Shown piece by piece: positions 34,786-62,749 of a stretch of DNA of 64,000 bases. A program made the position numbers and the translations under genes. This stretch comes from Naegleria gruberi (taxonomy: Eukaryota), in NCBI GenBank assembly GCA_000004985.1, contig GG738857.1; one strand, 5' to 3'. Under the pieces are notes generated by a model, which was not told where the DNA came from, did not search any database, and was given only the letters and a program-made list of their open reading frames with translations. Position 1 is the first letter of the stretch, and every line of letters begins with the position of its first letter.

Positions 34786-37700
34786 ATGATGGTCAATCAT
34801 GAATTGACAGATGAAGATCCACCCACTCTACTCACAACACCACTCAAAAAACCGACACATTCACTTGAACAACAACAACAAGATGAATTGTTGATAATCA
34901 ATACATCTTCTTCTTCTTCTAATCGCAACGATGATTTTCCCTCCAAAAAAAACAACAATAATTCGGTAACGGCCGCAGCTGTAAATAATTTTTCTTCAAA
35001 TTCTCTCCAACAACAAGTACAATACAACAACAATAACGTCGAAAGGCTAAAGAACAATGCGAATAATAATAATAATATAGATAATTCTGGTGGTAATAGC
35101 GCTTCCTCTCCATTGCAGAGAACCAAGCCTTTTGTGGGATCTCCTGCTTCCAATCATACATCGTCTTCATCATCATTGAGAAGTCCTCTTTCTGCTCTGA
35201 CTCCAGGTGGAACGAACAAGGCTACCACTACTACTACTACAACAGAAGATATCATGATGGGTATCGATTCTGTTGCTGAGGAGGTTATTGTGGATGATGA
35301 AGAGGATGATGAGGATGACTTGGAAGTGGTCATCCACAAGACGACTAGACAAACTGAGGATGTTATTGGTGGTCCTGGCGTTGTTGGATACTACTCTAAT
35401 GAAAGCGATAATATGGATGAAGATGATGATATGGAGGATGATGACACTACTATGCAAACCCTCTCCACAAGTCATTCCTCTTCAATTTGTTCAACAACTT
35501 CACACACTAACAAGTTTCCAATGTTGGATTTGAGTGCTCTGAATGGGAATAGCAAGAAGGCAAAGCTAACCTCAGTGATGCAACACTCTTTCATGATTAC
35601 ACCAAAGAGAATTGGTTCCAACTTGGTGAATAGTTACGAGATGCACCACAACCAACACCATGGCAAGACAGGAGCTAGTAATCAACATGTAGATCAATTG
35701 GAGTTACCATCTTCTATCCATACCAAAATGTCTCAAAATGATGATGAAGATGACCTCAACCTAGGTACTCTCAACCTGAATAGAACAAAAACAGCAACAC
35801 AGCCACACCAAGTCTACTTGCACCGAAGAGGTATCAGCTTCTCCAAAGATGTTGACACTCAAGTTTATTCTGACGATGAGGAAGATGACTTGAAGTGTGT
35901 CACTAGTAATCTTGGTCACGATGATGATGAGCTACCAGCAATTAAAACCAAGCCTCATCATGAAAAGAGGGCCTCCGTAGTGACTCAATTCGATGATGAT
36001 GATTTGGGATTGAGCATTTCAACCAGAAAACCTTCAGATCCAATGATGATAGATGACGATGATCTTCAAATCAAAACCTTCAAAAGCCAACATCCTTCCC
36101 AACAGAAATTATTGATTTCAACTTCTAAACAACTTGGAAACCAACGAGCCATGACTGATGATGGTTCAGACTCACCTCTCGGTAAACTCAACATTTCTTC
36201 ATCTCATCAACAAAAACAAACCAAACGTAGTGATGATTCCAACAAATCATCCAACAATAATCAATTTTTGACCGTAGGAAATACTTCAAATGCACCTACA
36301 TATTCTCCAAGAAGTCCTAATAATACTAAATCAGTATCCTTCATGATGCCTTCCACACTGAAAAGTGGAGCCAACCCATATCACTACAATAAGAGCACTC
36401 CTTCAAAACCTTCAATTTTCAATTTGGAACGTCATGTTTTGAGCTCAGACGATGAATTTTGTAACTCGCAACTTGCTGATCCAGAATATGTTCGTCAACA
36501 TTTGGAATTACTCTTTGAAAATACCTCTTCTCACCAATGTCAAAAATTAGAGAAAGAGTTTGAAGAATTGGAGGAAATTGATATGACTACTTGGCTTCAC
36601 AAACGTTTATATTTCAGAACAGGTCTCAAATATATGGATATGAATAGATACAGTAATGTTTTACCTAACGAAGATACTAGATTTAAACTCTACAAGGGTA
36701 TAGGACCAGTAATGCACATGAATTTTTCCTCTCAACAAATTTTTTCCAATTTTGCACTGTTGGCTAATCCATTGACTATTAATACTGAGACACCAACACA
36801 ACCAAAACCAAGTTCAATATCTATTACAAGTAGTAATACTATCAATAATAGTACAACAACAACAAATAACAGTGCCAATAATACTACTAACAATACTCAG
36901 AATAACAGAGTGGTATCTCCAAATGCAGAATTGTTATCCTCGTGGGAAGAAGATTACATTAATGCCAATTTGATAAAGACAAGAAAGGAATTTCTCTTTA
37001 ATTGGGATGAATTCTCAATTAATACCTCTCCACTCAGTATTACCGGTTCCAACTCTGATAGCCCAAATACCAACTATAGCAACAATAGAAAGGAAAGGGA
37101 AGAATTAGCAGAGAAGGTGAATATGGTTGATTATATTTGTACACAAGGTCCTCTTCCATATTCTGCTTCTCATTTTTGGAGAATGATTTATCAGAGTAAC
37201 TCTCACATTGTGTTGATGATTGGTCGTGAACAGGAAGAAACTGGTGTCAAGTGTGCCATCTATTATCCTACTCCTTCTCCAACTGCCAATTCCTTAACAT
37301 TGTCTTCAATTCTGACAACTTCATCTTCTCTGGATGGTGTCTCTCCAAGAAATATGTTAACTATTCCTGGTATGAAGAATGGAGCTACTGATTCGATCAT
37401 TATTGATGTGAACCCTCCAAAGACCATTTCTAACACGCAAAAATGGAGACTTGAAATTACCATTCCAAAGAGAGAACATGGTGATGACGAAGAACCAGTC
37501 AAGTGGATTATGCCAAAGGAACTTGTTCAAAGAGCACTCGTTATCAAACTGAAGAGAACTAAGGTTAATTCTGATGACGAGGAAGTTTTGGATACAAGAA
37601 AGATTCACCTTCTTCAATATGTTGGATGGATAGATCAGAGTGTTCCATCTCAAATTTCTACTTTCCAAAAAGTTATTGATCATGTCAATGAATTAATTGA

Positions 37701-38127
37701 GAAGAGAAAGAATGATATCTTGTCATTGTCACCTCTGTTAGCTTCAAACACCATTTTGCCATCACATTTAGGAAAATCTGTTTTGGATACAGTTGGACCT
37801 ATTGTTGTTCACTGCTCTGCAGGTATTGGTAGAACAGGAACATTTTGTGCTGTTGATTGTGCTTTGAAACAATTCAGAGCTCACATTTTTAAACATGTAC
37901 ACTCTTTGAAAAATCAAAATACTGTCAGTCCTCCAACCTCCTCTCGTATGTCTAACATTCCTGCTTTCCCTTTCAATATTTTCAATATTGTTAAAAAGCT
38001 CAAAGAACACAGGACTGGTATGGTACAGACAGAACACCAGTATGAATTTGTTTATAAGGCTGTTATTAGATGCTATAGTGACATTCTTAAAAAGTACAAT
38101 ATTAACATGCTGGAAAGAAAGAAATAA
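34786..38127 (+). CDS. Classical protein tyrosine phosphatase with an approximately 600-aa disordered N/S/T/D-rich N-terminal region (1113 aa)
   Basis: PTP motifs in order are NRYSNVLPNEDTRF (KNRY), DYINANLI, FWRMIYQSNSHIVLMI (WPD-region context), the catalytic VHCSAGIGRTGTFCAVD (HCxAGxGRT), and the Q-loop QTEHQYEFVYKAV. Homopolymeric T8, N-runs, and DDD or EED tracts lie upstream. Confidence 0.85.
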   Translation: MMVNHELTDEDPPTLLTTPLKKPTHSLEQQQQDELLIINTSSSSSNRNDDFPSKKNNNNSVTAAAVNNFSSNSLQQQVQYNNNNVERLKNNANNNNNIDNSGGNSASSPLQRTKPFVGSPASNHTSSSSSLRSPLSALTPGGTNKATTTTTTTEDIMMGIDSVAEEVIVDDEEDDEDDLEVVIHKTTRQTEDVIGGPGVVGYYSNESDNMDEDDDMEDDDTTMQTLSTSHSSSICSTTSHTNKFPMLDLSALNGNSKKAKLTSVMQHSFMITPKRIGSNLVNSYEMHHNQHHGKTGASNQHVDQLELPSSIHTKMSQNDDEDDLNLGTLNLNRTKTATQPHQVYLHRRGISFSKDVDTQVYSDDEEDDLKCVTSNLGHDDDELPAIKTKPHHEKRASVVTQFDDDDLGLSISTRKPSDPMMIDDDDLQIKTFKSQHPSQQKLLISTSKQLGNQRAMTDDGSDSPLGKLNISSSHQQKQTKRSDDSNKSSNNNQFLTVGNTSNAPTYSPRSPNNTKSVSFMMPSTLKSGANPYHYNKSTPSKPSIFNLERHVLSSDDEFCNSQLADPEYVRQHLELLFENTSSHQCQKLEKEFEELEEIDMTTWLHKRLYFRTGLKYMDMNRYSNVLPNEDTRFKLYKGIGPVMHMNFSSQQIFSNFALLANPLTINTETPTQPKPSSISITSSNTINNSTTTTNNSANNTTNNTQNNRVVSPNAELLSSWEEDYINANLIKTRKEFLFNWDEFSINTSPLSITGSNSDSPNTNYSNNRKEREELAEKVNMVDYICTQGPLPYSASHFWRMIYQSNSHIVLMIGREQEETGVKCAIYYPTPSPTANSLTLSSILTTSSSLDGVSPRNMLTIPGMKNGATDSIIIDVNPPKTISNTQKWRLEITIPKREHGDDEEPVKWIMPKELVQRALVIKLKRTKVNSDDEEVLDTRKIHLLQYVGWIDQSVPSQISTFQKVIDHVNELIEKRKNDILSLSPLLASNTILPSHLGKSVLDTVGPIVVHCSAGIGRTGTFCAVDCALKQFRAHIFKHVHSLKNQNTVSPPTSSRMSNIPAFPFNIFNIVKKLKEHRTGMVQTEHQYEFVYKAVIRCYSDILKKYNINMLERKK

Positions 38128-38129
38128 AT

Positions 38130-41100
38130 TTAATTACCAATCATTTCAAGAATGCTTTGAGCAGTTACAACTGTGCAATGTGGATTCTCCTTGATATATT
38201 TCCTAGTGAGAGTTGTTTCTTGATCTTCAATTTCATCATGATCAATCTCTGCCAATTGATTTTCACTATTTACAATAATCATATCCAAAGACTTGATTTC
38301 ATTAGTAATAATTCCTCCGTTCAAAGCTATAGATCCTTTCAACTTTCTATTATTCTTATTTTCCATTCCAAATAGATAGATTTTCATGCCTTCTAGAGGG
38401 TCATCCTTAGCAGAATCTTCTGCTGCTTGTTGCTTTTGAGCTGGAGAAGCTGATACGGTTCTTGTTGGCGTGTTTGCAGCTCTTGTTGGAGTTGATGTAG
38501 GAGCTTTACTATTAGATTTTGTTGGTGTTGAACTTGTTGAGCTTTTGTGTTGTTGAGTTTGTGGTTGCTTATTCCAATTAGAATAAGACCCACTTCTATC
38601 AAAGTAATATATATATGTTTTGACTTTGGCTTTCAATAGGCATTTCTAATAAAATATTATTGTAAATTAATTAAAATGTAAAGAGCAAACAAACCTTAAT
38701 AATTCTTTCAGTTGAATACCAATCAAAACCTTGAATTCCAAATCCAATTCTAGGCATGTGCACTGTAGCATCCATTGTGACAGCAGAGTAACAGACTTTT
38801 GCTAGGGCAATCTCTAGAGCACTATTAATAATTGGACCGTGACCCTTTGATTTCTCATAGTGTTGAGCAATTACATTTACAATATAGGTTGATCCCTTCT
38901 TACTCTTTACAGGAGTGAGTTGAGCCTCACCGACTGAGATAAGATCCTGTTCACAAGCATTTTCATAAATTAGCTTGATTTTCTTCCCGTACTTGCTGGT
39001 AATATGTTTAGAAATACCAGCATTTGGAAATTGTCCAAAATCTGAAATAACACTGTTGAAATTGTTATCTTGTTTGTGAATAAAAATACTTACTTGACAA
39101 TAAATCTAGTACCTGAGTGTTCATATTTTTCAGGTTGAGTAACATCTCCTTTCACATATTGAATAGTATTACTGTCGGAAGTGATTGGAGAGAATGGTTC
39201 ATCATCTTCTTCCTTGTTGAATTGTTTTTCCATTAGATAAAGGTCCAATTCCCAATCATCAGGTATTTCAATCAAATGTGGATCAAATTCATCATACTCA
39301 GATTCCTCATCTTCATCATCACTAGTTTTAATCTTTCTTCTCTTGGTTGTTGCATTTCTTTTGGAACCTCTTGTTCTGGTTGAAATAGGTGAAATGTATC
39401 CATCATCGTCTTCATCATCTGAAGGAGATAATATGAGAGATTCGTCCTTTTCAACTTCTTTCTTCTTTGGTTTCTTCTTTGGAGCTGCCTTCTTTTTCTT
39501 AGATTTAGTATGGTGATCTGTTTTTTGAGAACATAGATCAATGCCAGCATCTCCCAACAAGTTTTGTAATGCCTCCACATCCTTTGAAGATGAAGTTGTC
39601 TTTGGTCGATAGTCAATTCCGTCGTACATGTAAATGGATCCAGATTCAACATCTTGTAAACTCTCCGCAGCACTTTCTAAAGATAAACTCAATCTCTTAG
39701 GTCCCTTCTTGGCTAATAATTCATCAATGGTGATACCAAGAAGCTTTTCATCTGATTCTTCAGCACTGACGTCAGAGGTAGAGTCCATAATTTTGTGTAA
39801 TCCAAATGAAATCATTTCCATAATAGTATCGGAAGAGAGTTTTTCATCAGAGCTTGAATCAAATGCATTCGAAACGGCAGATGATGTATCAATAGTATTG
39901 ATGGATAGAGCAATCTTTTTCATTGATCTTTTCAAGATTACTTCTTCTACTGAGCTTTCAGTGACCAATCTGTAAACTGTTACTGGCTTATCTTGACCTA
40001 TTCTGTGACATCTGGCCTGAGCTTGTAAATCCATTTGAGGATTCATATCCATATCCATAAAAATAACTGTATCCGCACTGGTCAAGTTCAAACCAACACC
40101 TCCTGCTCTAGTGGAGAGCAAAAAGACAAACACATCCTTATCTGTGAAACTCTTAATTGCTTCAAATCTTTCCTCTCCTCTGACAGAACCGTCGAGTCGT
40201 TCATAATTCCACTTTCTGAAAGAAAAGTAGTCCTGTAAAATGTCCAACATTTGAGTCATTTGAGAGAAGATCAAAACCTTGTGCCCTTCTTGTTTGAGCT
40301 TTTTCAATAGTTTGTCTAAAATAATCATTTTACCACTGTTATTCACAATATGTTCACCTTCAACAAATGGTTCTTCTTCTGCTCCTTCAAACATATAGGG
40401 GTGATCACAACATTTACGTAAACTCATTAGGACATTGCTGAGACCTCTAGAATTCTTCTTACCAATAGCATTTCTATCAGCCATGAGGAAACCCTTGTAG
40501 AATTTCTTTTGTAAAGTTGTCAACCTAGTATAGATGATGTGTTCTTCCTTTGGAGGAAGATCATTCTTGAGAACTTGATTCTTTGTTCTTCTAAGAAGGA
40601 ATGGCTTGAGAACAATTTGGAAATTATTCCTCACAGAATCAGCATCCACATCCTCAACATTTTCATCAATATCTTCTTCAATATCTACACTCTCAGAGAT
40701 GGATTTCTTCAAAGTTGATTTGGAGAGGAAACATTGCTGAGGGAACCAGCTGTCAAATGTTTCGAATAAATGATCAAAGTAAGTTGGAGCACAGAAATAT
40801 AGGAGAGCCCACAGTTCTTTTGTATTGTTCATTAATGGAGTACCACTCATGAGAATGACTCTTTCATACTTGTAGATTTGTTGGAGGGCCTTGTAAAGGA
40901 TTGAATTTGGATTTTTCAGTCTGTGAGCTTCATCCACACAAAGACATTTATATTCGAAACCAGAAAGAAAACTTTCATCATTTGTTACTGTTTCATATGA
41001 TGTAACAATAACATCATATGGAAATTCTCCACTCTCCGCAAACTCCTCATTCAAAGTATCTTGCAATTCTGCACGTTCTTCTTGATTTCCATGATATCTC

Positions 41101-41823
41101 AACACACGAACAGAATTTCCACAAAATTTGTTAAATTCCAAACACCAATTTTCAATCAATGACAATGGCGAAACAATTAGAAATGGTTTCCTTGAACTTT
41201 CCTTGTCAGTACTTTCCATCCAATAACAGAAAAAACTAATCACCTCCAAAGTCTATATTATTACACGATCGTATTCACTCCAAAATTTTGATTACTTACT
41301 TTACCAAGACCCTATTTAAATAGTTGATCAATTAGTTTAAATTTCCAATTTAGAATAAGAAGAAACATACCATATCGTCACCTAATATTCCACCATGCGT
41401 CTTGTTATCCAACAATAAACTCTTCAACCAAGAAACAGCTTGCCACTGATGATTCTTCAATTTACACGAATTCAACAAGTATTTTGATGAAGGATTCGGC
41501 AACTGATCAACATCTCTCATCTCATTCAAACACTCACAATCAATTTGCAATGATTTAATTCTATTCAAAAATACATTAAAATCCAGCGTTTTGTTTTTTG
41601 GTTTTTGCAATTTTAATTTACTCAAATCCTTCTTCTTCTTTTTATTCCGATGATCATGATTGTGGTCATCATCATCATGATCGGAATCTGAAAGAGGCGG
41701 AGGTGAGTCATCTTCATCTTCTATATCTGAAAATTCTTCTTCCGATTGATGATCAACTCGTGGTTGTCTTGTTTCTTCTTCATCTTCATCAACAATGATG
41801 GAATCTTTTTTACGTTTGGACAT
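38130..41823 (-). CDS. ALC1/CHD1L-like chromatin remodeler: SNF2-family ATPase, then a TARG1-like macro domain, then a BRCT-like C-terminus. Five exons: 41823..41371, 41311..41300, 41252..39094, 39052..38695, 38645..38130
   Basis: Exon 1 carries the Q motif HQWQAVSWL...GGILGDDM|GTATGT. The 12-nt micro-exon GGTCTTGGTAAA (GLGK) lies between atttaaatag| and |GTAAGT. Exon 3 reads TLEVISFFCYWM...PFLIVSPLSLIENW...DEAHRLKN and the helicase-C motifs ([43 protein letters not shown]). A 41-nt intron GTAAGT...TTTCAACAG leads to the macro exon (YIVNVIAQHYEKSKGHGPI...VHMPRIGFGIQGFDW, compare TARG1 SMPRIGCGLDRLQW). A 49-nt intron GTTTGT...TTATTAG leads to the BRCT-like exon (KIYLFGMENKNNRKLKGSIALNGGII...TVVTAQSILEMI). 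All splice phases are consistent. Confidence 0.8.
41300..41311 (-). other. 12-nt micro-exon encoding G-L-G-K (the Walker-A/motif I lysine) of the SNF2 ATPase
   Basis: GGTCTTGGTAAA is flanked by acceptor ...atttaaatAG and donor GTAAGTaatc. Upstream exon 1 ends GGILGDDM. The downstream exon starts TLEVISFF. Together these reconstitute GGILGDDMGLGKTLEVISF. Confidence 0.65.
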
Positions 41824-45409: not shown

Positions 45410-46666
45410 TTATTGACTTGCTGGATCCAATAAGAGTTCATTAAGTGATTTTCTAATTGATCTACCTGGTGGTGCTTTTCCATGGCCAACTCTTCCCATA
45501 AATACAGTGTTCTTGCCTTTACCTTCTACCATCTCATTCAAAGTCTTTTCGATTGACTTGGCTAGCTCTCTACTTTCTTCCTTCTCGGAAAACTCAACTC
45601 CATTTCTCACATAATTTGAAAATATCACAGGAGTAGCTTCTGGTTGAAATTGCAATCCCAATTTCGTTGAAGTCAACCAAAGTCTTTGTAAAGCTCTTCC
45701 AACCTTAATAAAATCATTAATGTCCTTTGCCTCCTTCTCTGCAACCAACATGAAATGGCCTCCACAGAAGAATCCAGGCAATAAATCCATCTGCAATCTT
45801 GGCAATAAAGTTCCACCCATGAATCTATTCAGAAAATCAACTCTCTTCCAACCTCCGTCCAATGCCCATTTCATAAAGAATAAACCAAGTGGATCCAAAC
45901 CAACTGCTGGAGATGGAATTCTATCTTTACTCTGGTTGACTCCAAATTCAATGATGGTGCTATGGGTTGCATAAGCTTCTGGAGTGATGAGTCTTAACTT
46001 TCCATTCTTTTGGAGAAAGAGAGCAGTTTTGAAACGATCCATTGGTGACTCTTTCCAAAGCAAGGAAAAACCTAAAGAAGCAACACTTTGAGAAAATTCC
46101 TGCTTTTCTTGAGGAGTGAGTGCCTTGGTTGAAAATGGTCTTCTATTGACACATCGTTTTTCAATGAATTCTGACAAGTCATCCTTTCTAATATTTTCAT
46201 TCGAATCTCTAATTGAAACTTGAACGATTACTCTACTGTCATCCTTCTCATGTACTCGGGGTTCAGAAAACTCAACACTCAATCCCATTTCCCCACAACT
46301 CAACTCGATATTCTCCAATAAAGCTCCCAAAGCAATACAACTTGCACTTCCACGTAAATCGTAAACACAATGAGAACGAGTATCGAAATTGTGGATCGTG
46401 AATTGAGTGGAAGAGTTGGAAAGTTGTGAAGGGATTTCGAAACGCCAAGGTTGAACGTTATCACCTGAAGGAGCCCATTTTGATCTTTCTAATACTTTCT
46501 CAATGATTAGTTTGGAATCGAGTGAAGGTTTGGAATCAAGGAGAGGAGAAAGAGTGTGAAAAGATCTTGCAGCTGTGATGGAAGAGAAGAGTGCAAGAGT
46601 TTGTTTGTTCACAAGTTTAGAACTTTTTAACATTTTTTTTCTGTTGGAAAGTCCACAAATGATCAA
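45410..46666 (-). CDS. Nitroreductase-superfamily protein (double nitroreductase-like fold) with a predicted mitochondrial presequence
   Basis: The hallmark SKWAPSGDNVQPWRF (nitroreductase APSxxNxQPW) is present. The N-terminus MLKSSKLVNKQTLALFSSITAARSFHT is basic and hydroxylated with no acidic residues. Complete 418-aa ORF. Confidence 0.65.
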   Translation of the reverse strand: MIICGLSNRKKMLKSSKLVNKQTLALFSSITAARSFHTLSPLLDSKPSLDSKLIIEKVLERSKWAPSGDNVQPWRFEIPSQLSNSSTQFTIHNFDTRSHCVYDLRGSASCIALGALLENIELSCGEMGLSVEFSEPRVHEKDDSRVIVQVSIRDSNENIRKDDLSEFIEKRCVNRRPFSTKALTPQEKQEFSQSVASLGFSLLWKESPMDRFKTALFLQKNGKLRLITPEAYATHSTIIEFGVNQSKDRIPSPAVGLDPLGLFFMKWALDGGWKRVDFLNRFMGGTLLPRLQMDLLPGFFCGGHFMLVAEKEAKDINDFIKVGRALQRLWLTSTKLGLQFQPEATPVIFSNYVRNGVEFSEKEESRELAKSIEKTLNEMVEGKGKNTVFMGRVGHGKAPPGRSIRKSLNELLLDPASQ

Positions 46667-48112: not shown

Positions 48113-50583
48113 ATGACAAAAGTATCACCACTTCTAGATGAACAACAAAAAGATGCTGCCAATAAGAATCAGCAACACTCTGATATTAGTCAAGCTCTGA
48201 AACTCTTCTCTATCAAGACATGCTTGATATTCATGACAAGTATGCTTATTTTAATGAGGTTTGTACCCTATTCTTTATTGGTGTTAATCAATGATTTTGT
48301 AACCGACACAGTGTTGTAATTTTATCATCCATTTGGATTAGTTGCTTCAGTCCAACAGTTTCAGTCATCTCTTCCCAAGTAAGAGATGCAGAGTTCAATC
48401 GTATTGTATCCCACATTAAGCAAACCATGAATGAAGTGACCATGGTTTTAGAAACAGCCAAAGTTCAGATCGACAATCAAAGACCATTTCATTTGGATTC
48501 AACGTTGGAGCAATTGACTTATTCTTTGTACAGATCAGAAATATTGACCTTCCATCCTGATCTCATTCTAGCTATTTATATTGGCGAACCATTTGGATGG
48601 GAAGGTGGAATGCTACTCATTGGAAAAGATCACATGTATTTTGATTTAATTCGTGGTGTTGGTATTAGTTTGTATCCATGTAAAGACATTCAACTTGATT
48701 CATGTCAAAGAAACAATACTCCTTCAACCACATTTGCTTATTCTTCCAACGTTGTTTCGTATACTGCTTTGAAACGTCCTGGTGGTCCAGTATTTACTTT
48801 GAGTTATGCTGACAAGACCTTGCCATCAATTACATTCTTGACACTCATTACAAGTTATCCAAATCCAGCTGGATCAACAAATAATACCTATCCTTACTCA
48901 TTCCACCTTGGTTATGATATGAGTGTTGGTTCAGTTTCAAAGTATTTGACAAATTTTACATCAGCAATTTCAGGATCTAAGGCTTTTACAATTGAAATTG
49001 AAACTGGATATATTATCAGTTCTGATGTAGCAGATGCACGTGTTGCTGAATGGGATGCTAATGGAAAGGAATCTAGAAAGACTGCTCTGAATTTTGAAGA
49101 TCCAGAAACTGTTGAAATTGGAAAGATGGTCTATAATGCCTTTCCTGATTTTACTAAGATTCCATGCAACAGTGGAGCTGTTATTTCCGGATCAATGAGA
49201 TATGTCTCTGTCTATAGATATTGTACAGATACAAAGATCGATTGGTTGATTGTCTTTTCTGTACCTCAATGGAATTATATTGGAACAATGATAATTGCTA
49301 TTGTAATTGCTATTGGAAGTGGAGTTATCATTACATTGGTCTCAATTTTGATTGCAGTCTTGATGTCAGTAAGAATTGTGAAACCATTCCAAAACTTGAT
49401 AACTGCATTCGAAATGGTTGCCAACATGAAATTGGATGGTTTTTCAATTTCCAAGACTAGTTTTAAGGAAGTGAGAGTTTTACAATATCACTTTATGAAA
49501 ATGGTTTCCTCCATTGAAAAGTACAGAAGTTTCATTCCAGCTCACTTACTTTCAGAAATGGACGATGCAGAAGCTGCTGAAATTGAACATGATGATGCCA
49601 CTAGTATGTCAAGTGTATCAATGGCTGCTAGGTCTTTGCATCATGGACTTTCTGATAAATCAGTAAGAAACAGTATGAAGAAGGCTGCTGCCAGTCATGC
49701 CTCAATGGAAAAAGGCCACGTAAGAAATAGATTTGCACTCTATTTGGAAAAGAGAAAGGTTAGTGTTGCCTCTCTTAGAATAGAAGGATTGGGTAATTGG
49801 ATTAGCCACTTACATCACCAAGATGTTGTCAATTTGTTGAGTGATGTTTTCGAACAAATTACAATTGTAAATAAGACATCTGGAGGTCAAACAGGTCCAT
49901 TCGAGAATGCAACTATTTTAATTTACTTTAATGCAGCTAAGGATCAAGCAGATTATATTGAGAAAGCCATTTCAACAACTGCCAATCTCAATACTAAATT
50001 GGAGCAAATCAGAGAAAAAAAGTGGAAAGGAATGGAAACATTCAGACATAATAATCATATATTGAATCAACTCAAATTCAGATTAGCTTCATCGATCCAA
50101 GAAACAACTTGTGGTAATGTTGGTACCAAAGATGCAAAATCATTTACAGTACTCGGAAGTGTCAATTATAACTTGGAATCACTCTTGGAATGTGCCAGAG
50201 AATTGAACGTAAATGTTGTAATTTCAGAACCATTGAAAATAACTTGTAATTCCTACCATACCAGAATGATAGACTCGCGTAGCATTTGTGCAGATGAGGT
50301 TGTTGGAAAACCATGTGCAGATGAAGATTTACATTTTAATAAGGTCAACATATATGAAATTGGTGAACCAACCTCCATTGATAGTGATGAATGGATGTAT
50401 GAATTACAGCAACAAGAAAAGAAGGACAAGTGGAAGAAGTATAACGAAGCAACCAAAATGTATTTGGAAAATTGCTTCCCCGAGGCAACAATGTTGTTCA
50501 AGGAATATCTAGAGAAGAATCCAAACGATTTACCTGCAATGAATTTTATTGCAAAATGTTGTGAAATGGTAACTGAAATGTAA
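48113..50583 (+). CDS. Receptor-type membrane protein: TM1, extracellular sensor domain, TM2, juxtamembrane helix, degenerate class III nucleotidyl cyclase homology domain, C-terminal helical region. Two exons: 48113..48258 and 48312..50583 (53-nt intron GTTTGT...CGACACAG)
   Basis: Exon 1 gives MTKVSP...IKTCLIFMTSMLILM. Splicing yields ...S-VVILSSIWISCFSPTV, which is colinear with the downstream paralog. The cyclase-like block reads VSVASLRIEGLGNW...FRLASSIQETTCGNVGTKDAKSFTVLGSVNYNLESLLECARELNVNVVISEPL. It follows the class III pattern (FaDIvGFT ... RIGIhtGpvvaGviG ... GDtVNlASRMES ... IlVSe) but lacks the metal-binding Asp and the Arg. Confidence 0.75.
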
Positions 50584-51370
50584 TCAAAATGAAAACCTAA
50601 TTCGAGTCAACACTTGCTCAATTTTATTAATGGTTGTGTTAAACCTTATTAGTGTCTCATAACAGTTACCCAACAAACTATTTTAGAGAATTAGCCAGAT
50701 TAAGGGCTCATATATTTTCATCGTCATAACTAACCAAATTCAGAATTAATACCTTCCTTACAAATTCGTTTCCTTAAATATTTGATTCAAATGCAACCTT
50801 CAAATAGAAGATGCATTTCTCCCTGTATTTATATAATATAACAAGAGTGCTGTAGTAATTGTGTGAGATACATCTTGGTCGGCCAGATGACTCTAATACC
50901 ACACATAAGCTTCATAATGCCCTTTGGATTTAATAGCAGTAGAGTTGCTGCTCTTCTTAGGTTCCTCTGTTTGTGTGGGCAATGAAAACAGTTGTTCTTT
51001 AAATTCACCTTATTAGGTGAGTGCGCATCAACTTCCAAGAAAACGTTGTGTGTAAACCAGGCCTTAAGATAGTGAGAGTGTTTGTTTGTTGTTCGCTGCA
51101 GAGGAGGAAGGAATGCATGACTACTGTAATATTGCTCACTTCACACAACAAATGGTTATAACCTCCACCATATTTAAACATTTAAAAAACCGAAGACAAA
51201 GTGCTGCAGAACACTCCACAACTGGGCGTGTATCTACATTGTTTACAGTTTGATTACCATCATCCACTAAGAAATTAAAACTAAGCTCTTGAAGCATCCA
51301 CTAAGGAATATATATTTAGAATATTAAGGATTTTCATCATCATCACAATTATATATATCTAAATAACAAA

Positions 51371-53956
51371 ATGACAAGAATAACACCCATGTTCGGCATT
51401 GACTCCTCTCACAATGCAGGAATCTCCTTCACCAACAACAAGTATAAAGCAAATAACATCACCCCCGCCTCTAAGGAGGACAACAACAGTAATCTATCTA
51501 GTAATGAAGGAGAAGAAGCAGTGAATTTACAAGAAGAGAGACGATACCTATGTGGATCTATCAAGTTTTTGTTAATATTTCTCATTTCATTACTTCTTCT
51601 CATTTCAGTGTTCTTTTTATCAATTATTTGGATTAGTTGCTTTAGTTCGGCAGTTGTGGATTTAAGCTCTCGCATGAGAGCTCAGGAATTTGATAAAATC
51701 ATACAATTTACCAAGAAAACAGTTAATGATGTGCTGTTAGTGACAGAATCTGTCAAATCTCAACTATATTATGATTTTGATTTTAGTAACATGATTGAAC
51801 ATCACTTACATCGAGCTATGAAAGTTGCTCAAGCTAATTTACCCAATGTAACACAAGGAGTCTATGTTGGTGATCCATTTGGTGGATATTTTGGTTTTGC
51901 ACATTTGAGTGGTGAAATAACCTATTTCAATTTAACACCAAATTGTAATCAAGTTTACTTTGTTTGTAAAAATTTTGATACGAGTGAAAATTGTGATAGA
52001 GGAACAGAACCAGAATTTGTATTTCCTCCGTACACATCGAATTATGTAGCAGAGATGGCTTCGACGAATCCTGGCAATCCAGTTTTCACACTTTCCTATG
52101 TGGATCCATCACTTCCTTCTTTTGTATTCATGACAATGGTTTCGTCCATCAAGACTGGACAGCAGCCAATCAAGCCAGGAGCTTCATTTTCCTATTATTT
52201 TGCCTACGATATGACTGTCATGTCAGTTTCCACATTTTTGGTGGACATTACAACTTCAATACATGGGAGTTCTTCTTTTATTATTGAAACACAGTCGGAA
52301 TTTGTGATTGCAAGTGATCATCCTGAAGTGAGTGTGGCCATAGTGGATAAGGATGGAAATGTTGAAAGAAAAACAACTGCCACTTTTGGAGGACAAGTTA
52401 CCAAAATTGGAAAAATAGTTTATGATACTTTTGAAAAATTAACTTCAATTCCTTGCAATGAAGAACGAGTTTTATCATTGACAGAATCAGTAGTATCAAT
52501 TAAGAGATTTTGTTCAAAGGAAGGAATTGATTGGATTATCATATTAAGCGTTCCTCAATGGAATTATTTAGGATCGATGATTATTGCTATTGTTTCGGCA
52601 GTTGTTGGTTCCATACTCATAGTTTCTGTCGGTATTGTTGTGGCCATTATATTTTCACTCAAAATTGTGAGACCATTTGTTAATTTAATTAGTGCTTTCG
52701 AATGGGTTTCTCTAATGAAATTGGAAAATATCAATTTGTACAAGTCGTCATTTTCTGAAGTGAAAAGTTTACAGTTTCATTTCAAGGAAATGATTGAAAG
52801 GATTAAGTTGTACAGAAAATTTATTCCTCCTCATCTATTAGTTCAATTGGATGCTAATAATGTAAATCAACAAGAGGAAACATTTAAGAAAACTTCAAAT
52901 ACAGCTGAAACAAGTTTGAATGTAACTTCATCTTCGAAAAACAACAAATCCTACTCACAAAAAGAATCTAACCACGATGATCCTCAATCATCTGGTGATT
53001 TGAGGAGTAAGAATTCGAGTGGAGCAAATTCTGGACCAAATGCCAACATGTTTAGTTTATATTTGGATAAGAGACAAGTCACCTTATTGAATATTTATTT
53101 GGAAGGATTAAATGAGTGGTTTGTTGTGATAAATCCAACTGAAATAGTCACTATATTGAGTGAAATATATGATGTAATTGTCAAGCTGGTGAGATTGACA
53201 GGTCAAGTTGGGCAAATTGAAGACGAAACCATTCCAATACATTTAAACGCAACAAGTGATCAATCTCAACATGAATTGAAAGGTATTCAATTGTGTCACT
53301 CACTACTCTCCAAGCTTAATGCTTATAAGGAATCAAAATTGATGAATCATGCAATTGTTTCAAAATACGATGAGGAAGTTTTCGAAAATTTCAAGTTTCG
53401 TATTGTTGCCAATAGCCAGAGTGCATATTGTGGAAATTTGGGAACCAAACAAGCCATGTCCTTCTCCATAATTGGTAGTTCACAACACAACCTCAAAATC
53501 ATGACCATCCTCGCCAAAGAGCTTGATATTCCAATTTTAATCACCGAAGATTTATATGAAAAGGTGGAAAACAAATTCCAAGTAAGATATGTGGATACTG
53601 TCCAATTGGTCAATGATCAGCATTTCTCTAATCCATATTTCACTACCCACACTCGATCTAGACTCTACGATTCAATGAAAGTATTCGAATTGGGTGAAAT
53701 TAACACAGTTTCCCAAGATGAATGGATGTATGAATTAGATGCAAAGGAAAAGAAGAAGAATAGATGGAAAAAGTATAACGATGCTTGTTTCTTTTTCTTT
53801 GCCAGTAGATATGCAGAGGCCAGCAACATGTTGGAGGAATATTTGGATGAACTGATATCACCAACTGGAAAGCAAGATATTGTTGCTTTGAAATTACTTG
53901 ATAAGTGTAAGGATAGAGCTGCAGATTGTGTGGAAAGTTTTGAAAATTTCAAATGA
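51371..53956 (+). CDS. Tandem paralog of 48113..50583: a 2-TM receptor-type protein with a degenerate cyclase homology domain (861 aa, single exon)
   Basis: Colinear blocks are shared with the upstream gene: MT(K/R)..P N-terminus, TM1 IKFLLIFLISLLLLISVFFLSIIWISCF, PVFTLSYVDPSLPSFVFMT, and DWIIILSVPQWNYLGSMIIAIV...KIVRPFVNLISAFEWV. The cyclase-like block is VTLLNIYLEGLNEW...FRIVANSQSAYCGNLGTKQAMSFSIIGSSQHNLKIM. The C-terminal DEWMYEL...WKKYN motif is also shared. Confidence 0.8.
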   Translation: MTRITPMFGIDSSHNAGISFTNNKYKANNITPASKEDNNSNLSSNEGEEAVNLQEERRYLCGSIKFLLIFLISLLLLISVFFLSIIWISCFSSAVVDLSSRMRAQEFDKIIQFTKKTVNDVLLVTESVKSQLYYDFDFSNMIEHHLHRAMKVAQANLPNVTQGVYVGDPFGGYFGFAHLSGEITYFNLTPNCNQVYFVCKNFDTSENCDRGTEPEFVFPPYTSNYVAEMASTNPGNPVFTLSYVDPSLPSFVFMTMVSSIKTGQQPIKPGASFSYYFAYDMTVMSVSTFLVDITTSIHGSSSFIIETQSEFVIASDHPEVSVAIVDKDGNVERKTTATFGGQVTKIGKIVYDTFEKLTSIPCNEERVLSLTESVVSIKRFCSKEGIDWIIILSVPQWNYLGSMIIAIVSAVVGSILIVSVGIVVAIIFSLKIVRPFVNLISAFEWVSLMKLENINLYKSSFSEVKSLQFHFKEMIERIKLYRKFIPPHLLVQLDANNVNQQEETFKKTSNTAETSLNVTSSSKNNKSYSQKESNHDDPQSSGDLRSKNSSGANSGPNANMFSLYLDKRQVTLLNIYLEGLNEWFVVINPTEIVTILSEIYDVIVKLVRLTGQVGQIEDETIPIHLNATSDQSQHELKGIQLCHSLLSKLNAYKESKLMNHAIVSKYDEEVFENFKFRIVANSQSAYCGNLGTKQAMSFSIIGSSQHNLKIMTILAKELDIPILITEDLYEKVENKFQVRYVDTVQLVNDQHFSNPYFTTHTRSRLYDSMKVFELGEINTVSQDEWMYELDAKEKKKNRWKKYNDACFFFFASRYAEASNMLEEYLDELISPTGKQDIVALKLLDKCKDRAADCVESFENFK

Positions 53957-55594: not shown

Positions 55595-57063
55595 ATGTTA
55601 ACACGTTATTGCAACACCAGTAGCTATTCAACATGGTTAGTATTAGGGATGCTTGTTGCCTTTCTAATCGTCTTGCAACATTGTTCATCCAATGTTGATG
55701 GAGCAGCAACTTCAAATGGTACACTAAGGGAATGGCTCACCTCTTTGCAAAATGAAGCAGCTTCATTAGAACGCTCAGCTTTACAATTGGAAATGGCGAT
55801 TGCTTTGTTGACTAAGGCAAATTCAACAAGTACATCCCTTAGAGCTTCTCAACTTGCAAAGATTAGAAAGTCTATTGCCTTACTTGCAAGTGAAATTCAA
55901 ATCATCAACGAAACATGCTCTACATACACTGGTCAAAACTGTGATAATGCCGTCTGTAATTCAAAGTGTTTGAGCTGTTTTTCTAATAATAATTGTATCC
56001 AGTGTACTGGAAATTGGGATGGAAAAGAATGCTCAATTTGTAAAACTGGATGGGGTGGCTCTGATTGCAACACTCCAGTATGTGATTCTAAATGTAGTAT
56101 GTGCTCATCGCCAGGAGTTTGTTCTGCTTGCTATGGTAACTGGAATGGTGTTACTTGTTCAACATGTAATTTAGGATGGACTGGTGTTGATTGTAATACA
56201 CCAATTTGTGAAGTCAAGTGTAAGAACTGCTCTGCACCAGGTCAATGTTTAACATGTTCAGGTAATGGAATGGAAATGATTGTTCAACTTGCAAATCAGG
56301 ATGGACTGGTATTGATTGTAACACACCTATTTGCGATTCAAAATGTGTGAATTGTACTTTACCTGGTCAATGTAGTACATGTATTGGTAATTGGAATGGA
56401 ACATCTTGTTCAACATGCAGAATTGGCTGGAATGGAACTAATTGTACCACACCAGTATGTGATTCTAAATGTGCTAATTGTACATCACCAGGAGTTTGTT
56501 CTGTTTGCTCTGGAAACTGGAATGGAACAACTTGCTCTACTTGTAAGACTGGTTGGACAGGTTCTGATTGTAATACACCAATTTGTGACGCCAAATGTAC
56601 AACATGTGCCTCACCAGGTGTTTGTTTTGTATGTTCAGGAAACTGGAATGGAGCTACTTGTTCAACATGTAAAACTGGTTGGTCAGGTACCAGTTGTGCA
56701 ACACCAATTTGTGATGCCAAATGTACAACTTGTGCCTCACCAGGTGTTTGTTCTGTATGTTCTGGTAATTATGATGGTGCAACATGTTCCACTTGTAAAT
56801 CAGGATGGGGTGGCTCAACATGTTCAGTCTCGACAACATATACCATTTATGCTGGTGCTGACAATTCGTACACTCTCTACCATAATGGTGTTGCTATTCT
56901 GTCAGGAAGCACTTGGAGTTCTCCTCAAACAACTACAAGAGTATTGAATAGTGGTGATATTTTGATATCTAAAGGTTATGATTCTGATGGAATGGGAGGA
57001 CTCGTGGTTGAAGTTTACAACTCAAACAATGATTATTCAACTGGTAGAGTTACATGGTATTGA
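55595..57063 (+). pseudogene. Secreted tenascin-type EGF-repeat protein (about 12 near-identical 31-aa repeats) with a C-terminal non-repeat domain. A 1-bp frameshift lies at about 56268. Otherwise a continuous CDS
   Basis: Signal peptide LVLGMLVAFLIVLQHC. Repeats follow the pattern NTPxCDxKCxxCxSPGVCSxCxGNWNGxTCSTCKTGWTGSDC. At 56262-56275 the sequence ggtaatggaatgg replaces the ggtaattggaatgg found in every other repeat, which splits the ORF into 55595..56350 and 56347..57063. TGA at 57061-57063 lies directly before a 49-N gap. Confidence 0.65.
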
Positions 57064-62285: not shown

Positions 62286-62699
62286 GGTTTTAGGTTTGGG
62301 TTTAGGTTTGGGTTTTTAGGTTTGGGTTTGGGTTTGGGTTTGGGTTTGGGTTTGGGTTGGGTTTGGGTTTGGGTTTGGGTTTGGGTTTGGGTTTGGGTTT
62401 GGGTTTGGGTTTGGGTTTGGGTTTGGGTTTGGGTTTGGGTTTGGGTTTGGGTTTGGGTTTGGGTTTGGGTTTGGGTTTGGGTTTGGGTTTGGGTTTGGGT
62501 TTGGGTTTGGGTTTGGGTTTGGGTTTGGGTTTGGGTTTGGGTTTGGGTTTGGGTTTGGGTTTGGGTTTGGGTTTGGGTTTGGGTTTGGGTTTGGGTTTGG
62601 GTTTGGGTTTGGGTTTGGGTTTGGGTTTGGGTTTGGGTTTGGGTTTGGGTTTGGGTTTGGGTTTGGGTTTGGGTTTGGGTTTGGGTTTGGGTTTGGGTT
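62286..62699 (+). repeat. Telomere-like hexamer microsatellite (TTTGGG)n. It is imperfect at its 5-prime end (ggttttaggtttgggtttaggtttgggttttt) and then perfect for more than 60 units. It runs directly into a 50-N gap
   Basis: Direct read of the sequence. A second short copy starts at 63262 (gggctagggtttgaaggttgggtttgg). All ORFs predicted inside it (poly-GL, poly-PK, poly-TQ and similar) are artefacts. Confidence 0.9.
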
Positions 62700-62749
62700 N
62701 NNNNNNNNNNNNNNNNNNNNNNNNNNNNNNNNNNNNNNNNNNNNNNNNN
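62700..62749. other. Assembly gap (50 N) placed inside the hexamer array
   Basis: n-run. The true array length is unknown. Confidence 1.

What the first reader, a model, noticed from the sequence alone, without database searches (positions are those of the whole stretch)
48113..53956. Tandem pair of receptor-type proteins with a degenerate (probably non-catalytic) class III cyclase homology domain
Two adjacent same-strand paralogs (intergenic about 790 bp) share a 2-TM topology: N-terminal TM1, an about 330-aa extracellular domain, TM2, a juxtamembrane amphipathic helix, and a domain that follows the adenylyl/guanylyl cyclase catalytic-domain pattern block by block. In both copies the first metal-binding Asp of FaDIvGFT is replaced (SLRIEGL and NIYLEGL). 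The Arg of the GDtVNxASRMES segment is also absent (GSVNYNLESLLE and GSSQHNLKIMTI). These changes indicate pseudo-cyclases that retain a sensor and dimerisation scaffold. The first copy has a 53-nt intron that the second lacks, so the duplication is old enough for intron gain or loss.
Basis: partly seen in the sequence, partly recalled or inferred. Interest (0 to 1): 0.6.

Follow-up and report, generated by a model that had tools for sequence, protein, structure and literature searches.

The report
Tandem dead-cyclase sensor receptors in Naegleria
Two neighbouring Naegleria gruberi genes encode bacterial-style membrane receptors (outside sensor, two membrane helices, HAMP relay, adenylate-cyclase-like domain) whose cyclase domain has lost the residues needed to make cAMP or cGMP. 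They belong to a large family of such apparently inactive receptors, so part of this amoeba's large "cyclase" repertoire probably does not make cyclic nucleotides.

Summary
The window is Naegleria gruberi. Gene 1 (48113-50583, 53-nt intron, 805 aa) and gene 2 (51371-53956, 861 aa) are same-strand paralogs: 34% identity, E 4e-152, 787 bp apart.

Pfam finds no cyclase domain in either protein. Other evidence shows a genuine class III (IIIb-like) cyclase homology domain:
- a profile of five paralogs hits only class III adenylate cyclases in the PDB (E 1e-8);
- the same profile retrieves canonical bacterial cyclases from 1.8 billion proteins;
- an AlphaFold model (pLDDT 88) matches only cyclase catalytic domains.

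In the register set by those canonical cyclases (D-K-GD-T-N-R), both proteins lack four catalytic residues:
- first metal Asp: R / Y
- second metal Asp: A / E
- Lys: P / Q
- Arg: L / M
They keep the Asn and the Thr/Ser. None of about 56 family representatives has the first Asp or the Arg.

Other features:
- The ectodomain is a divergent dCache fold that Pfam does not detect.
- HAMP follows TM2.
- A 37-85-aa disordered linker separates the transducer motif from the cyclase domain.
- The TPR-like tail is shared with bacterial cyclases.

Best reading: catalytically dead, ligand-sensing receptors. Their output mechanism is unknown.

The public model of gene 1 is N-terminally truncated.

The parts
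48113..48258 (+). Gene 1 exon 1: N-terminal cytosolic tail and the first part of TM1 (codons 1-48, plus 2 nt of codon 49). Missing from the public model NAEGRDRAFT_47649.
48259..48311 (+). 53-nt intron of gene 1 (GTTTGT...ACAG).
   Evidence: Removing it joins exon 1 in frame to the long ORF. The result aligns without a gap to paralogs across the junction.
48312..50583 (+). Gene 1 exon 2 (to stop). Spliced product is 805 aa. The public model starts only at ATG 48427 (718 aa).
48352..49272 (+). Gene 1 ectodomain (aa 63-369), dCache-like, with 4 family-conserved Cys.
   Evidence: By alignment to gene 2. Fold evidence from the gene 2 model. Cys conservation.
49273..49554 (+). Gene 1 TM2 (aa 370-399), HAMP (400-455) and the YRSFIPAHLL transducer-type motif (453-463).
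49555..49728 (+). Gene 1 low-complexity Ser/Ala-rich linker (aa 464-521).
49729..50385 (+). Gene 1 degenerate class III cyclase homology domain (aa 522-740). Catalytic positions: R538, P578, A582, T661, N669, L673.
50386..50580 (+). Gene 1 TPR-like helical tail (aa 741-805, DEWMYEL...).
51371..53956 (+). Gene 2, single exon, 861 aa = NAEGRDRAFT_47650 (XP_002679537.1, UniProt D2V927).
51554..51646 (+). Gene 2 TM1 (aa 62-92).
51647..52561 (+). Gene 2 ectodomain (aa 93-397): long stalk helix plus two alpha/beta modules, i.e. a dCache fold. Conserved Cys at 199, 208, 362, 381.
   Evidence: AF2 pLDDT 86.6. Foldseek against the PDB: the top 50 are dCache ligand-binding domains or sensor proteins, E 3e-11 to 7e-6. 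Weak profile hits to dCache structures. Cys.
52562..52843 (+). Gene 2 TM2 (aa 398-427), HAMP (428-483) and the YRKFIPPHLL motif (481-491).
52844..53047 (+). Gene 2 Ser/Asn-rich disordered linker (aa 492-559).
   Evidence: (low pLDDT at the model's N-terminus)
53048..53716 (+). Gene 2 degenerate class III cyclase homology domain (aa 560-782). Catalytic positions: Y576, Q615, E619, S699, N707, M711.
53717..53953 (+). Gene 2 TPR-like helical tail (aa 783-861).

Best explanation
Both genes encode type-III-topology membrane receptors of bacterial design. The domain order is: short cytosolic N-terminus, TM1, disulfide-containing double-Cache (dCache) ligand-binding ectodomain, TM2, HAMP, a conserved 'YRxFIPxHL' transducer-type helix, a 58-68-aa disordered Ser-rich linker, a class IIIb-type cyclase homology domain (CHD), and a TPR-like helical tail.

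The CHD fold and its structural motifs are kept (GNxGT arm, FNA, conserved His, Asn, Thr/Ser). Both metal-binding Asp, the adenine Lys and the transition-state Arg are replaced, so the domain cannot carry out two-metal cyclisation of ATP or GTP.

The two genes are members of a heterolobosean family (Naegleria gruberi, N. fowleri, N. lovaniensis, Willaertia; distant relatives in Percolomonas). In that family these losses are universal, yet the rest of the domain is under purifying selection.

Most likely mechanism (inferred, not shown):
- The receptors act as dimers.
- An extracellular small molecule binds the dCache module.
- TM2 and HAMP relay the change.
- The dead CHD-tail dimer acts as a non-enzymatic output module. 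Its conserved former active-site pocket (FEN[D/E], Asn, Thr/Ser, a family-specific Lys) serves as a binding site for a nucleotide or a partner protein rather than as a catalyst.

Confidence by layer: architecture and CHD homology about 0.95; catalytic inactivity about 0.8; the specific output mode at most 0.35.
For: Homology
- A five-paralog profile against PDB sequences gives only class III cyclases: 3r5g 1.4e-8, 2w01 4.3e-8, 6fht 6.4e-7.
- The same profile against 1.84 billion representatives gives 4597 hits at E<=1e-3, including canonical bacterial CHDs.
- A 30-sequence family profile hits PF00211 proteins (with HAMP, dCache_1, CHASE2) at E down to 5e-20.
- 12 of 30 family members give weak PF00211 hits, best 1.7e-5.

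Fold
- AF2 model: pLDDT 87.9, pTM 0.86.
- Foldseek top 50 are all class III AC/GC domains, TM up to 0.79 on CyaB.

Catalytic columns: 19 canonical rows read D/K/G/D/T/N/R. The family, 59 rows, reads:
- D1 = Y15 H10 K8 L7 F5 R4, no D;
- Lys mostly S/N;
- Gly -> N45;
- D2 = D26 E10 G9 N8;
- Thr = T27 S14;
- Asn = N46;
- Arg = L27 M21, no R.

Sensor: AF2 pLDDT 86.6; the Foldseek top 50 are dCache ligand-binding domains or sensor proteins; four conserved Cys.

HAMP.

Linker: 37-85 aa (median 55) in 67 relatives (the family plus more distant clades), against about 12 aa in bacterial dCache/HAMP-cyclases.

Tail: TPR_2 hits in 10 of 30 members. The same tail is present in canonical bacterial cyclases.

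Selection: intact ORFs; 30-50% identity in the folded domains against 18% in the linker; family members in four genera.
Against: - No activity measurement exists. Inactivity is inferred from residue identities.
- About half of the family (not gene 1; gene 2 has Glu) keeps the second metal Asp, preceded by a conserved Glu. The Asn and Thr/Ser are also kept, so residual or unconventional chemistry is not formally excluded.
- Pfam itself does not recognise the CHD, dCache or HAMP in either protein.
- Dimerisation, ligand binding and any partner are untested.
- The TPR-like tail is ancestral to active bacterial cyclases, so it is not evidence for a new output.
- There is no expression evidence for either gene or for the intron.
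Confidence: 0.72

Rival explanations
1. The dead CHDs work by heterodimerising with catalytically competent cyclase paralogs. They would be ligand-controlled inhibitory or regulatory subunits that tune cAMP/cGMP output, as in asymmetric C1/C2-type or heterodimeric receptor cyclases.
For: - Class III CHDs are obligate dimers (established knowledge).
- The dimer-arm motif GNxGT is invariant in the family.
- The long flexible linker would let the CHD reach partners in trans.
- Naegleria encodes many cyclases.
- Chytrid rhodopsin-cyclases that function only as heterodimers are a precedent (abstract of PMC8815786).
- Some weaker hits keep both Asp but lack Asn/Arg, i.e. look C1-like (P0103, P0139, P0150).
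Against: - The family supplies neither a C1-like set (no first Asp) nor a full C2-like set (no Arg, usually no Lys). Any heterodimer would therefore have two crippled sites.
- dCache, TM and HAMP normally homodimerise along the whole protein.
- No partner was identified. The neighbouring genes 1 and 2 cannot complement each other.
Confidence: 0.2
2. They are still active nucleotide cyclases, or catalyse a related nucleotidyl-transfer reaction, using non-canonical residues such as the conserved Glu-x-Asp/Glu of the FEN[D/E] motif.
For: - Conserved acidic residues remain at and next to the second metal site. Asn and Thr/Ser are retained.
- One family member is annotated 'adenylate/guanylate cyclase', and several as 'Guanylate cyclase domain-containing protein'.
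Against: - The first metal Asp is absent in all about 56 representatives. It is replaced by chemically unrelated residues (Y/H/K/L/F/R), which indicates that position is unconstrained.
- The Arg is always hydrophobic.
- Gene 1 has Ala at the second Asp.
- Both Asp are required in every characterised class III cyclase (established knowledge).
- The database names are automatic domain labels, not tests.
Confidence: 0.07
3. The genes are decaying relics (pseudogenes in the making) with no function.
For: - Catalytic residues are lost.
- The public model of gene 1 is truncated.
- No expression data are at hand.
Against: - Both reading frames are intact over 805 and 861 codons.
- Fold-determining residues, four ectodomain Cys, HAMP and tail motifs are conserved across four genera at 30-50% identity, while the linker has diverged to 18%.
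- High-confidence AF2 models were obtained for both halves.
Confidence: 0.02

Closest known systems
Bacterial class IIIb adenylate cyclases with periplasmic sensor + HAMP + CHD (dCache_1-HAMP-CHD and CHASE2-CHD types; structural representatives CyaB of P. aeruginosa 3r5g, Cya2 2w01, CyaC 1wc1)
   Same: - Same domain order: sensor, TM, HAMP, 'xxYVPxxLVxxL' transducer motif, CHD.
- Same Thr at the base-contact position.
- Same GNIG arm, and the same TPR-like 'YNxAxxxYFxxxFxEA...PxDxP...C' tail.
   Different: - The bacterial proteins carry the full D-K-GD-T-N-R set. The Naegleria proteins lack both Asp, the Lys and the Arg.
- A 37-85-aa disordered linker is inserted between the transducer motif and strand beta1.
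- The sensor and HAMP have diverged beyond Pfam detection.
Degenerate half-sites of pseudo-heterodimeric cyclases (mammalian tmAC C1/C2 forskolin site, soluble guanylate cyclase alpha/beta, heterodimeric chytrid rhodopsin-cyclases)
   Same: A CHD that has lost part of the catalytic set but keeps the fold and dimer interface, and is used for regulation rather than catalysis (established knowledge; PMC8815786 abstract).
   Different: In those systems each subunit keeps the complementary half, so one active site survives. Here neither half is intact, and no complementary partner is evident.
Degenerate GGDEF/EAL receptor proteins of bacteria (e.g. LapD, PelD, FimX) and receptor pseudokinases
   Same: A functional analogy only. 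A sensor-HAMP receptor whose former nucleotide-processing domain has lost catalysis and serves as a nucleotide- or partner-binding output (knowledge-based lead, not tested here).
   Different: The domain family is different or only distantly related. No nucleotide binding has been shown for the Naegleria CHDs.
dCache_1 ligand-binding domains of bacterial chemoreceptors and kinases (TlpQ 6fu4, PctD 7prq, PctA-C, Mlp24/37, Tlp3, mmHK1S-Z3)
   Same: The same fold: a long N-terminal helix carrying a membrane-distal and a membrane-proximal PAS-like module, placed between two TM helices.
   Different: - Sequence similarity is below Pfam thresholds.
- Two conserved Cys pairs are present.
- The RxWY-type amino-acid motif seems to be missing; this was judged by eye only.
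- The host is eukaryotic. Earlier work reported Cache in only one Naegleria protein (PMC4822843).

Membership tests
Class III nucleotidyl cyclase homology domain (Pfam PF00211 superfamily) | Significant sequence similarity to known CHDs | tested here: met
   A direct Pfam scan of the two proteins found no hit at E<=1. Profile searches did:
- Family profile against PDB sequences: only class III cyclases, 1.4e-8.
- Against 1.84 billion proteins: canonical CHDs at 1e-21 to 1e-12.
- Against PF00211-annotated proteins: 5e-20.
- 12 of 30 family members hit PF00211 weakly.
Class III nucleotidyl cyclase homology domain (Pfam PF00211 superfamily) | Palm-like beta-alpha-beta-beta-alpha-beta fold of the CHD | tested here: met
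   AF2 pLDDT 87.9, pTM 0.86. The Foldseek PDB top 50 are all class III AC/GC catalytic domains, E 6e-11, TM 0.79 on 3r5g.
Catalytically competent class III cyclase | Two metal-binding Asp (FxDIxGF, xGD) | tested here: not met
   Gene 1 has R538 and A582. Gene 2 has Y576 and E619. The first Asp is absent in 0 of about 56 family representatives... that is, none retains it. All 19 canonical rows have D and D.
Catalytically competent class III cyclase | Substrate-defining pair (Lys/Glu plus Asp/Thr/Cys) | tested here: inconclusive
   The Lys is replaced by P578 / Q615 (family mostly S/N). The Thr position is kept as T661 / S699.
Catalytically competent class III cyclase | Transition-state Asn and Arg (GDxVNxASR) | tested here: not met
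   The Asn is kept (N669 / N707; 46 of 53 in the family). The Arg is replaced by L673 / M711, and no family member has Arg.
Catalytically competent class III cyclase | Measured cAMP/cGMP synthesis | not testable with these tools
   Needs an enzyme assay or cya- complementation.
dCache (double Cache / PDC) extracellular sensor | Long helix plus two tandem PAS-like alpha/beta modules between two TM helices | tested here: met
   AF2 pLDDT 86.6. The Foldseek PDB top 50 are dCache ligand-binding domains or sensor proteins (TlpQ, PctD, PctA-C, Mlp24/37, Tlp3, HK1S-Z), E 3e-11 to 7e-6. Weak profile hits to 7k5n, 3c8c and 5ave.
dCache (double Cache / PDC) extracellular sensor | Match to Pfam dCache_1 (PF02743) at the curated threshold | tested here: not met
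   There was no hit in the two proteins. One of 23 relatives hit at E 0.086, and one hit MCP-like_PDC_1 at 0.0022.
HAMP domain | About 50 aa helix-connector-helix directly after TM2, with the conserved Pro and Glu | tested here: met
   - In the model TM2 runs into AS1, followed by a 14-aa connector and then AS2.
- NarQ TM2-HAMP is the best PDB sequence hit, E 0.017.
- hhalign against the HAMP of six bacterial HAMP-CHD proteins gives 93.3%, E 2.6e-7.
- The Pfam HAMP model itself does not reach threshold.
TPR-like repeat | Helical hairpins with the W/Y-N-A-F-A-P pattern | tested here: inconclusive
   The model has four C-terminal helices. TPR_2 or TPR_1 hits occur in 10 and 5 of 30 members, at E>=0.002, below the curated cut-offs. 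The same tail is found in canonical bacterial cyclases.

The most novel reading that the evidence does not exclude
A whole heterolobosean receptor family (more than 50 clusters at 50% identity, at least 10 genes in N. gruberi) has turned a bacterial dCache-HAMP-adenylate cyclase into a non-enzymatic signalling receptor. The dead cyclase dimer, freed from HAMP by a flexible linker, would act as a ligand-controlled nucleotide sensor, scaffold or regulator of the active cyclases. If so, this would be the first large expansion of Cache-type chemoreceptors in a eukaryote. It would also mean that a sizeable share of Naegleria's counted 'cyclases' do not make cyclic nucleotides.
Probability: 0.35. 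Interest if true: 0.6.

Novelty: new variant of a known kind. Interest (0 to 1): 0.45.

Why it matters
Naegleria is often cited for its unusually large cyclase repertoire: at least 81 in the genus pangenome (PMC9928731). Earlier work reported a Cache domain in only a single Naegleria protein (PMC4822843).

This locus changes both points:
- A substantial, conserved sub-family of these 'cyclases' lacks the catalytic machinery.
- Each member carries a divergent dCache sensor that standard HMMs miss.

Consequences:
- Counts of active cyclases and of Cache receptors in Heterolobosea need revision.
- It gives a tractable case of how a class III cyclase domain can be reused without catalysis.
- It provides candidate chemoreceptors for an amoeba genus that includes the pathogen N. 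fowleri.
- It corrects the public gene model of NAEGRDRAFT_47649, which lacks TM1.

Tried and rejected
- Direct Pfam scan of both proteins found no cyclase, Cache or HAMP hit. This would have refuted the finding had profile and structure searches not been run.
- The word-indexed homolog search returned only four proteins, twice. It missed gene 1's own database entry. From that I first concluded that gene 1 was unannotated. One search rejected this: the gene is present as a truncated 718-aa model.
- My first by-eye register placed the second metal Asp one residue too early (on the N/D of FEN / IED). HMM alignments to CyaB and to 19 canonical CHDs corrected it to A582 / E619.
- The idea that genes 1 and 2 form a complementary C1/C2-like heterodimer was rejected, because neither supplies the first Asp or the Arg.
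- The idea that the TPR-like tail is a newly acquired output module was rejected, because canonical bacterial cyclases have the same tail.
- A search for further paralogs or other CHDs in the window found none.
- The look-up of encoding contigs gave no record for either protein.
It was repeated with an exon-2-only segment.
- Literature searches found no description of inactive cyclase receptors in Naegleria.

Full report
**Source and gene models**

The window is AT-rich eukaryotic DNA (GC about 0.33). Gene 2's product is 100% identical to a Naegleria gruberi predicted protein, NAEGRDRAFT_47650 (XP_002679537.1, UniProt D2V927), on a 573-kb scaffold. Gene 2 is a single ORF, 51371..53956, 861 aa.

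Gene 1 consists of exon 1 (48113..48258), a 53-nt GT..AG intron (48259..48311) and exon 2 (48312..50583). Three observations support the intron:
- Unspliced, exon 1 runs into a stop at 48317-48319.
- The frame of the long ORF is open and conserved for 38 codons upstream of its first ATG at 48427.
- Splicing yields an 805-aa protein that aligns without a gap to gene 2 and to a third paralog across the junction.

The public model of gene 1 (NAEGRDRAFT_47649, XP_002679536.1, D2V926) is only the 718-aa ORF from 48427. It therefore lacks the N-terminal tail and TM1.

**Paralogy**

The two proteins share 34% identity over 781 aa (E 4e-152). They lie 787 bp apart on the same strand. No further copy or other cyclase-like ORF is present in the window.

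Each protein is more similar to proteins encoded elsewhere than to its neighbour:
- Gene 1 is 40% identical to N. fowleri FDP41_005001.
- Gene 2 is 61% identical to NAEGRDRAFT_73198 and 39% identical to NAEGRDRAFT_69161.

Identity between the two copies by region:
| Region | Identity |
|---|---|
| TM2 | 50% |
| HAMP | 51% |
| Ectodomain | 35% |
| Tail | 36% |
| CHD | 31% |
| Linker | 18% |

This is the pattern expected for folded domains under constraint joined by a free linker.

**Is the C-terminal domain a cyclase homology domain?**

Pfam alone says no. There is no PF00211 hit at E<=1 in either protein. Single-sequence phmmer against PDB sequences gives class III adenylate cyclases as the best hits, but only weakly (gene 1: 3r5g 0.011, 2w01 0.03; gene 2: 2w01 1.5).

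Profiles and structure settle it:
- A profile of just five paralogous C-terminal regions hits only class III cyclases in the PDB: CyaB 3r5g 1.4e-8, Cya2 2w01 4.3e-8, 6fht 6.4e-7, CyaC 1wc1 0.016.
- The same profile, searched exhaustively against 1.84 billion representative proteins, gives 4597 hits at E<=1e-3, 247 at <=1e-10 and 51 at <=1e-30.
- A 30-sequence family profile hits proteins whose precomputed Pfam domains are PF00211 together with HAMP, dCache_1, CHASE2 or sCache, at E down to 5e-20 in a 5.8-billion-sequence database.
- Twelve of 30 family members give weak PF00211 hits on their own, best 1.7e-5.
- An AlphaFold2 model of gene 2 residues 554-861 is confident (pLDDT 87.9, pTM 0.86).
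- Its 50 best Foldseek matches in the PDB are all class III adenylate or guanylate cyclase catalytic domains (E 6e-11 and up; TM 0.79 normalised on CyaB).

UniProt already labels several N. fowleri and N. lovaniensis relatives 'Guanylate cyclase domain-containing protein'. One N. gruberi relative (D2VR72) is annotated 'adenylate/guanylate cyclase'. Domain-level recognition therefore exists for relatives, though not for these two proteins.

**Catalytic residues**

I aligned all 151 retrieved proteins to the family profile and read the six canonical positions. Nineteen canonical bacterial CHDs in the same alignment (for example a CHASE2 protein from Peregrinibacteria) read D...K-x-x-G-D...T...N-x-x-x-R without exception. 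This validates the register.

| Position | Canonical (19 rows) | Family (59 rows, about 56 proteins) | Gene 1 | Gene 2 |
|---|---|---|---|---|
| First metal Asp | D | Y15 H10 K8 L7 F5 R4, never D | R538 | Y576 |
| Lys | K | mostly S/N | P578 | Q615 |
| Gly of GD | G | N45 D7 | N | D |
| Second metal Asp | D | D26 E10 G9 N8 A1 | A582 | E619 |
| Thr | T | T27 S14 | T661 | S699 |
| Asn | N | N46 of 53 | N669 | N707 |
| Arg | R | L27 M21 I4 V2, never R | L673 | M711 |

Structural CHD signatures persist: the GNxGT arm (invariant), FNA (for FGAP), the following conserved His, and hydrophobic core positions. Family-specific conservation appears in the old pocket (E of FEN, and a Lys where canonical enzymes have F/M/I). 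The scatter of unrelated residues at the first Asp position argues that metal binding there is no longer selected. The pocket as a whole has not simply decayed.

**The rest of the protein**

*Topology.* Hydropathy gives two TM segments per protein.

*Ectodomain.*
- An AF2 model of gene 2 residues 51-489 (pLDDT 86.6) shows TM1 continuing into a long stalk helix. Two alpha/beta modules follow, then TM2.
- Its best 50 PDB matches are dCache ligand-binding domains or sensor proteins of bacterial chemoreceptors and kinases. They include TlpQ 1.5e-9, PctD, PctA-C, Mlp24/37, Tlp3, HK1S-Z2/Z3/Z8 and TlpA; the top hit is a full-length MCP model at 2.9e-11.
- A family profile also gives weak hits to dCache structures 7k5n, 3c8c and 5ave (E 0.04-0.1).
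- Pfam does not see this. Among 23 relatives there is one dCache_1 hit at E 0.086.
- Four cysteines (gene 2 C199, C208, C362, C381) are conserved in 16-17 of the 17 closest relatives. This fits two disulfides in an extracellular domain.

*HAMP.*
- The model shows TM2 running into a helix, a 14-residue connector and a second helix.
- The best PDB sequence hit of this region is the NarQ TM2-HAMP crystal construct (E 0.017).
- hhalign of the family segment, with TM removed, against the HAMP segments of six bacterial HAMP-cyclases gives 93.3% probability, E 2.6e-7.

*Transducer motif and linker.*
- Right after HAMP comes the nearly invariant YRxFIPxHL[LV]xxL.
- This motif corresponds to 'FGQYVPKALVERL' in a bacterial dCache_1-HAMP-CHD protein. 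In that bacterial protein about 12 residues then lead to strand beta1.
- In the Naegleria-type proteins a low-complexity insert of 37-85 aa (median 55; 58 and 68 aa here, rich in Ser, Asn and Ala) sits at that point. It is predicted to be disordered (low pLDDT).

*Tail.*
- After the CHD, the conserved DEWMYEL motif leads into four helices with a TPR-like pattern.
- TPR_2 and TPR_1 hits occur in 10 and 5 of 30 members.
- The same tail (YNxAxxxYFxxxFxEA...PxDxP...C) is present in canonical bacterial CHASE2-type cyclases. It is therefore inherited and not a new output device.

**Distribution**

Named members come from:
- N. gruberi: at least ten genes (47649, 47650, 73198, 69161, 65846, 68321, D2VR72, 65007, 74863, 54123);
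- N. fowleri, N. lovaniensis and Willaertia magna;
- more distant clades that are also degenerate, in Percolomonas and in metagenomic eukaryote contigs, some with an N-terminal ankyrin-repeat extension.

The whole architecture (ectodomain, TM2, HAMP, degenerate CHD, tail) is conserved across these proteins.

**Mechanism**

Shown by computation: the topology, the dCache, HAMP and CHD folds, loss of four of the six catalytic residues, the inserted linker, and family-wide conservation.

Inferred from established knowledge of the families:
- dCache, HAMP and CHD modules act as dimers.
- dCache domains bind small ligands.
- Class III catalysis needs both Asp and is severely impaired without the Arg.

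My best reading is a ligand-sensing receptor that makes no cyclic nucleotide. Its CHD-tail dimer would be a non-enzymatic output, with the conserved former active-site pocket used for binding a nucleotide or a partner. Confidence in inactivity is about 0.8. Confidence in the output mode is at most 0.35.

Rival readings:
- Main rival: the dead CHDs pair with active cyclase paralogs as regulatory subunits. The flexible linker would permit this. However, the family offers neither a C1-like nor a C2-like half-site, and genes 1 and 2 cannot complement each other.
- Residual or unconventional catalysis is unlikely but not excluded. About half the family keeps the second Asp, preceded by a conserved Glu.
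- Decay to pseudogenes is contradicted by intact ORFs and cross-genus conservation.

**Comparison with what is known, and novelty**

The closest known systems are bacterial class IIIb sensor-HAMP-CHD adenylate cyclases. The design and tail are the same. The differences are the dead active site, the inserted linker, and a sensor and HAMP too divergent for Pfam.

Partly degenerate CHDs are well known as the second half of pseudo-heterodimeric cyclases. A lineage-wide receptor family in which every member has lost both halves was not found described in my literature searches.

Upadhyay et al. [quoted passage not shown] The present family indicates many more hidden dCache receptors.

I rate this a new variant of a known kind, of moderate interest (0.45). 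It is correct and coherent, it revises two published counts and one gene model, and it poses a clear question: how does a dead cyclase signal? It rests on sequence and predicted structure only, and pseudoenzymes as such are common.

Noticed in passing
window 62289..62749: About 68 tandem copies of TTTGGG (97% matches), with TTTAGG-like variants at the inner edge, run 5'->3' into a 50-N assembly gap at 62700..62749. TTTGGG is the candidate telomeric repeat proposed for N. gruberi by Fulneckova et al. 2013 (PMC3622300). This may be a chromosome end joined to another contig during scaffolding, or an interstitial telomere-like array. If it is a true end, the receptor pair lies only about 8 kb from a telomere, i.e. 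it is subtelomeric.
   Followed up: partly
window 20502..24056 (+): A single 1184-aa ORF combines a eukaryotic RNA-dependent RNA polymerase domain (PF05183, 2.5e-68, aa 121-622) with a C-terminal protein kinase domain (PF07714/PF00069, aa 902-1163). This is an unusual fusion.
   Followed up: no
window 48113..48426: The public N. gruberi model of gene 1 (NAEGRDRAFT_47649, 718 aa) starts at ATG 48427. It omits exon 1, the 53-nt intron and 38 conserved codons, and so loses TM1.
   Followed up: yes
P0002 (NAEGRDRAFT_73198, 567 aa), not in the window: The closest paralog of gene 2 (61% identity) lacks the stretch from mid-TM2 to the second CHD strand in the alignment. This is probably a mis-predicted gene model with a skipped exon or a false intron, not a real deletion.
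   Followed up: no
window 55595..57063 (+): Two adjacent ORFs encode Cys-rich repeats of the type CxxCxxxGxCxxCxGNWxGxxCxxCxxGWxGxDCNTPxC (weak EGF_laminin and teneurin-EGF hits). They are probably one secreted or surface protein split by an intron or frame change.
   Followed up: no
P0090, P0091, P0099, P0112, P0113, P0133 (about 1160-1190 aa; metagenomic contigs): A more distant clade has the same ectodomain-HAMP-degenerate CHD-tail architecture. It carries an N-terminal extension of about 390 aa (JGI name 'ankyrin repeat protein/class 3 adenylate cyclase') and a different set of substitutions at the catalytic columns, e.g. K-D-S-S-S-T-R-M.
   Followed up: partly
window 34786..38127 (+), 30015..33014 (+), 39090..41249 (-), 45410..46666 (-): Neighbouring genes appear unrelated to cyclic-nucleotide signalling: a 1113-aa protein with a C-terminal tyrosine phosphatase domain, an RCC1-repeat plus EGF protein, an SNF2 helicase, and a nitroreductase-like protein.
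   Followed up: no
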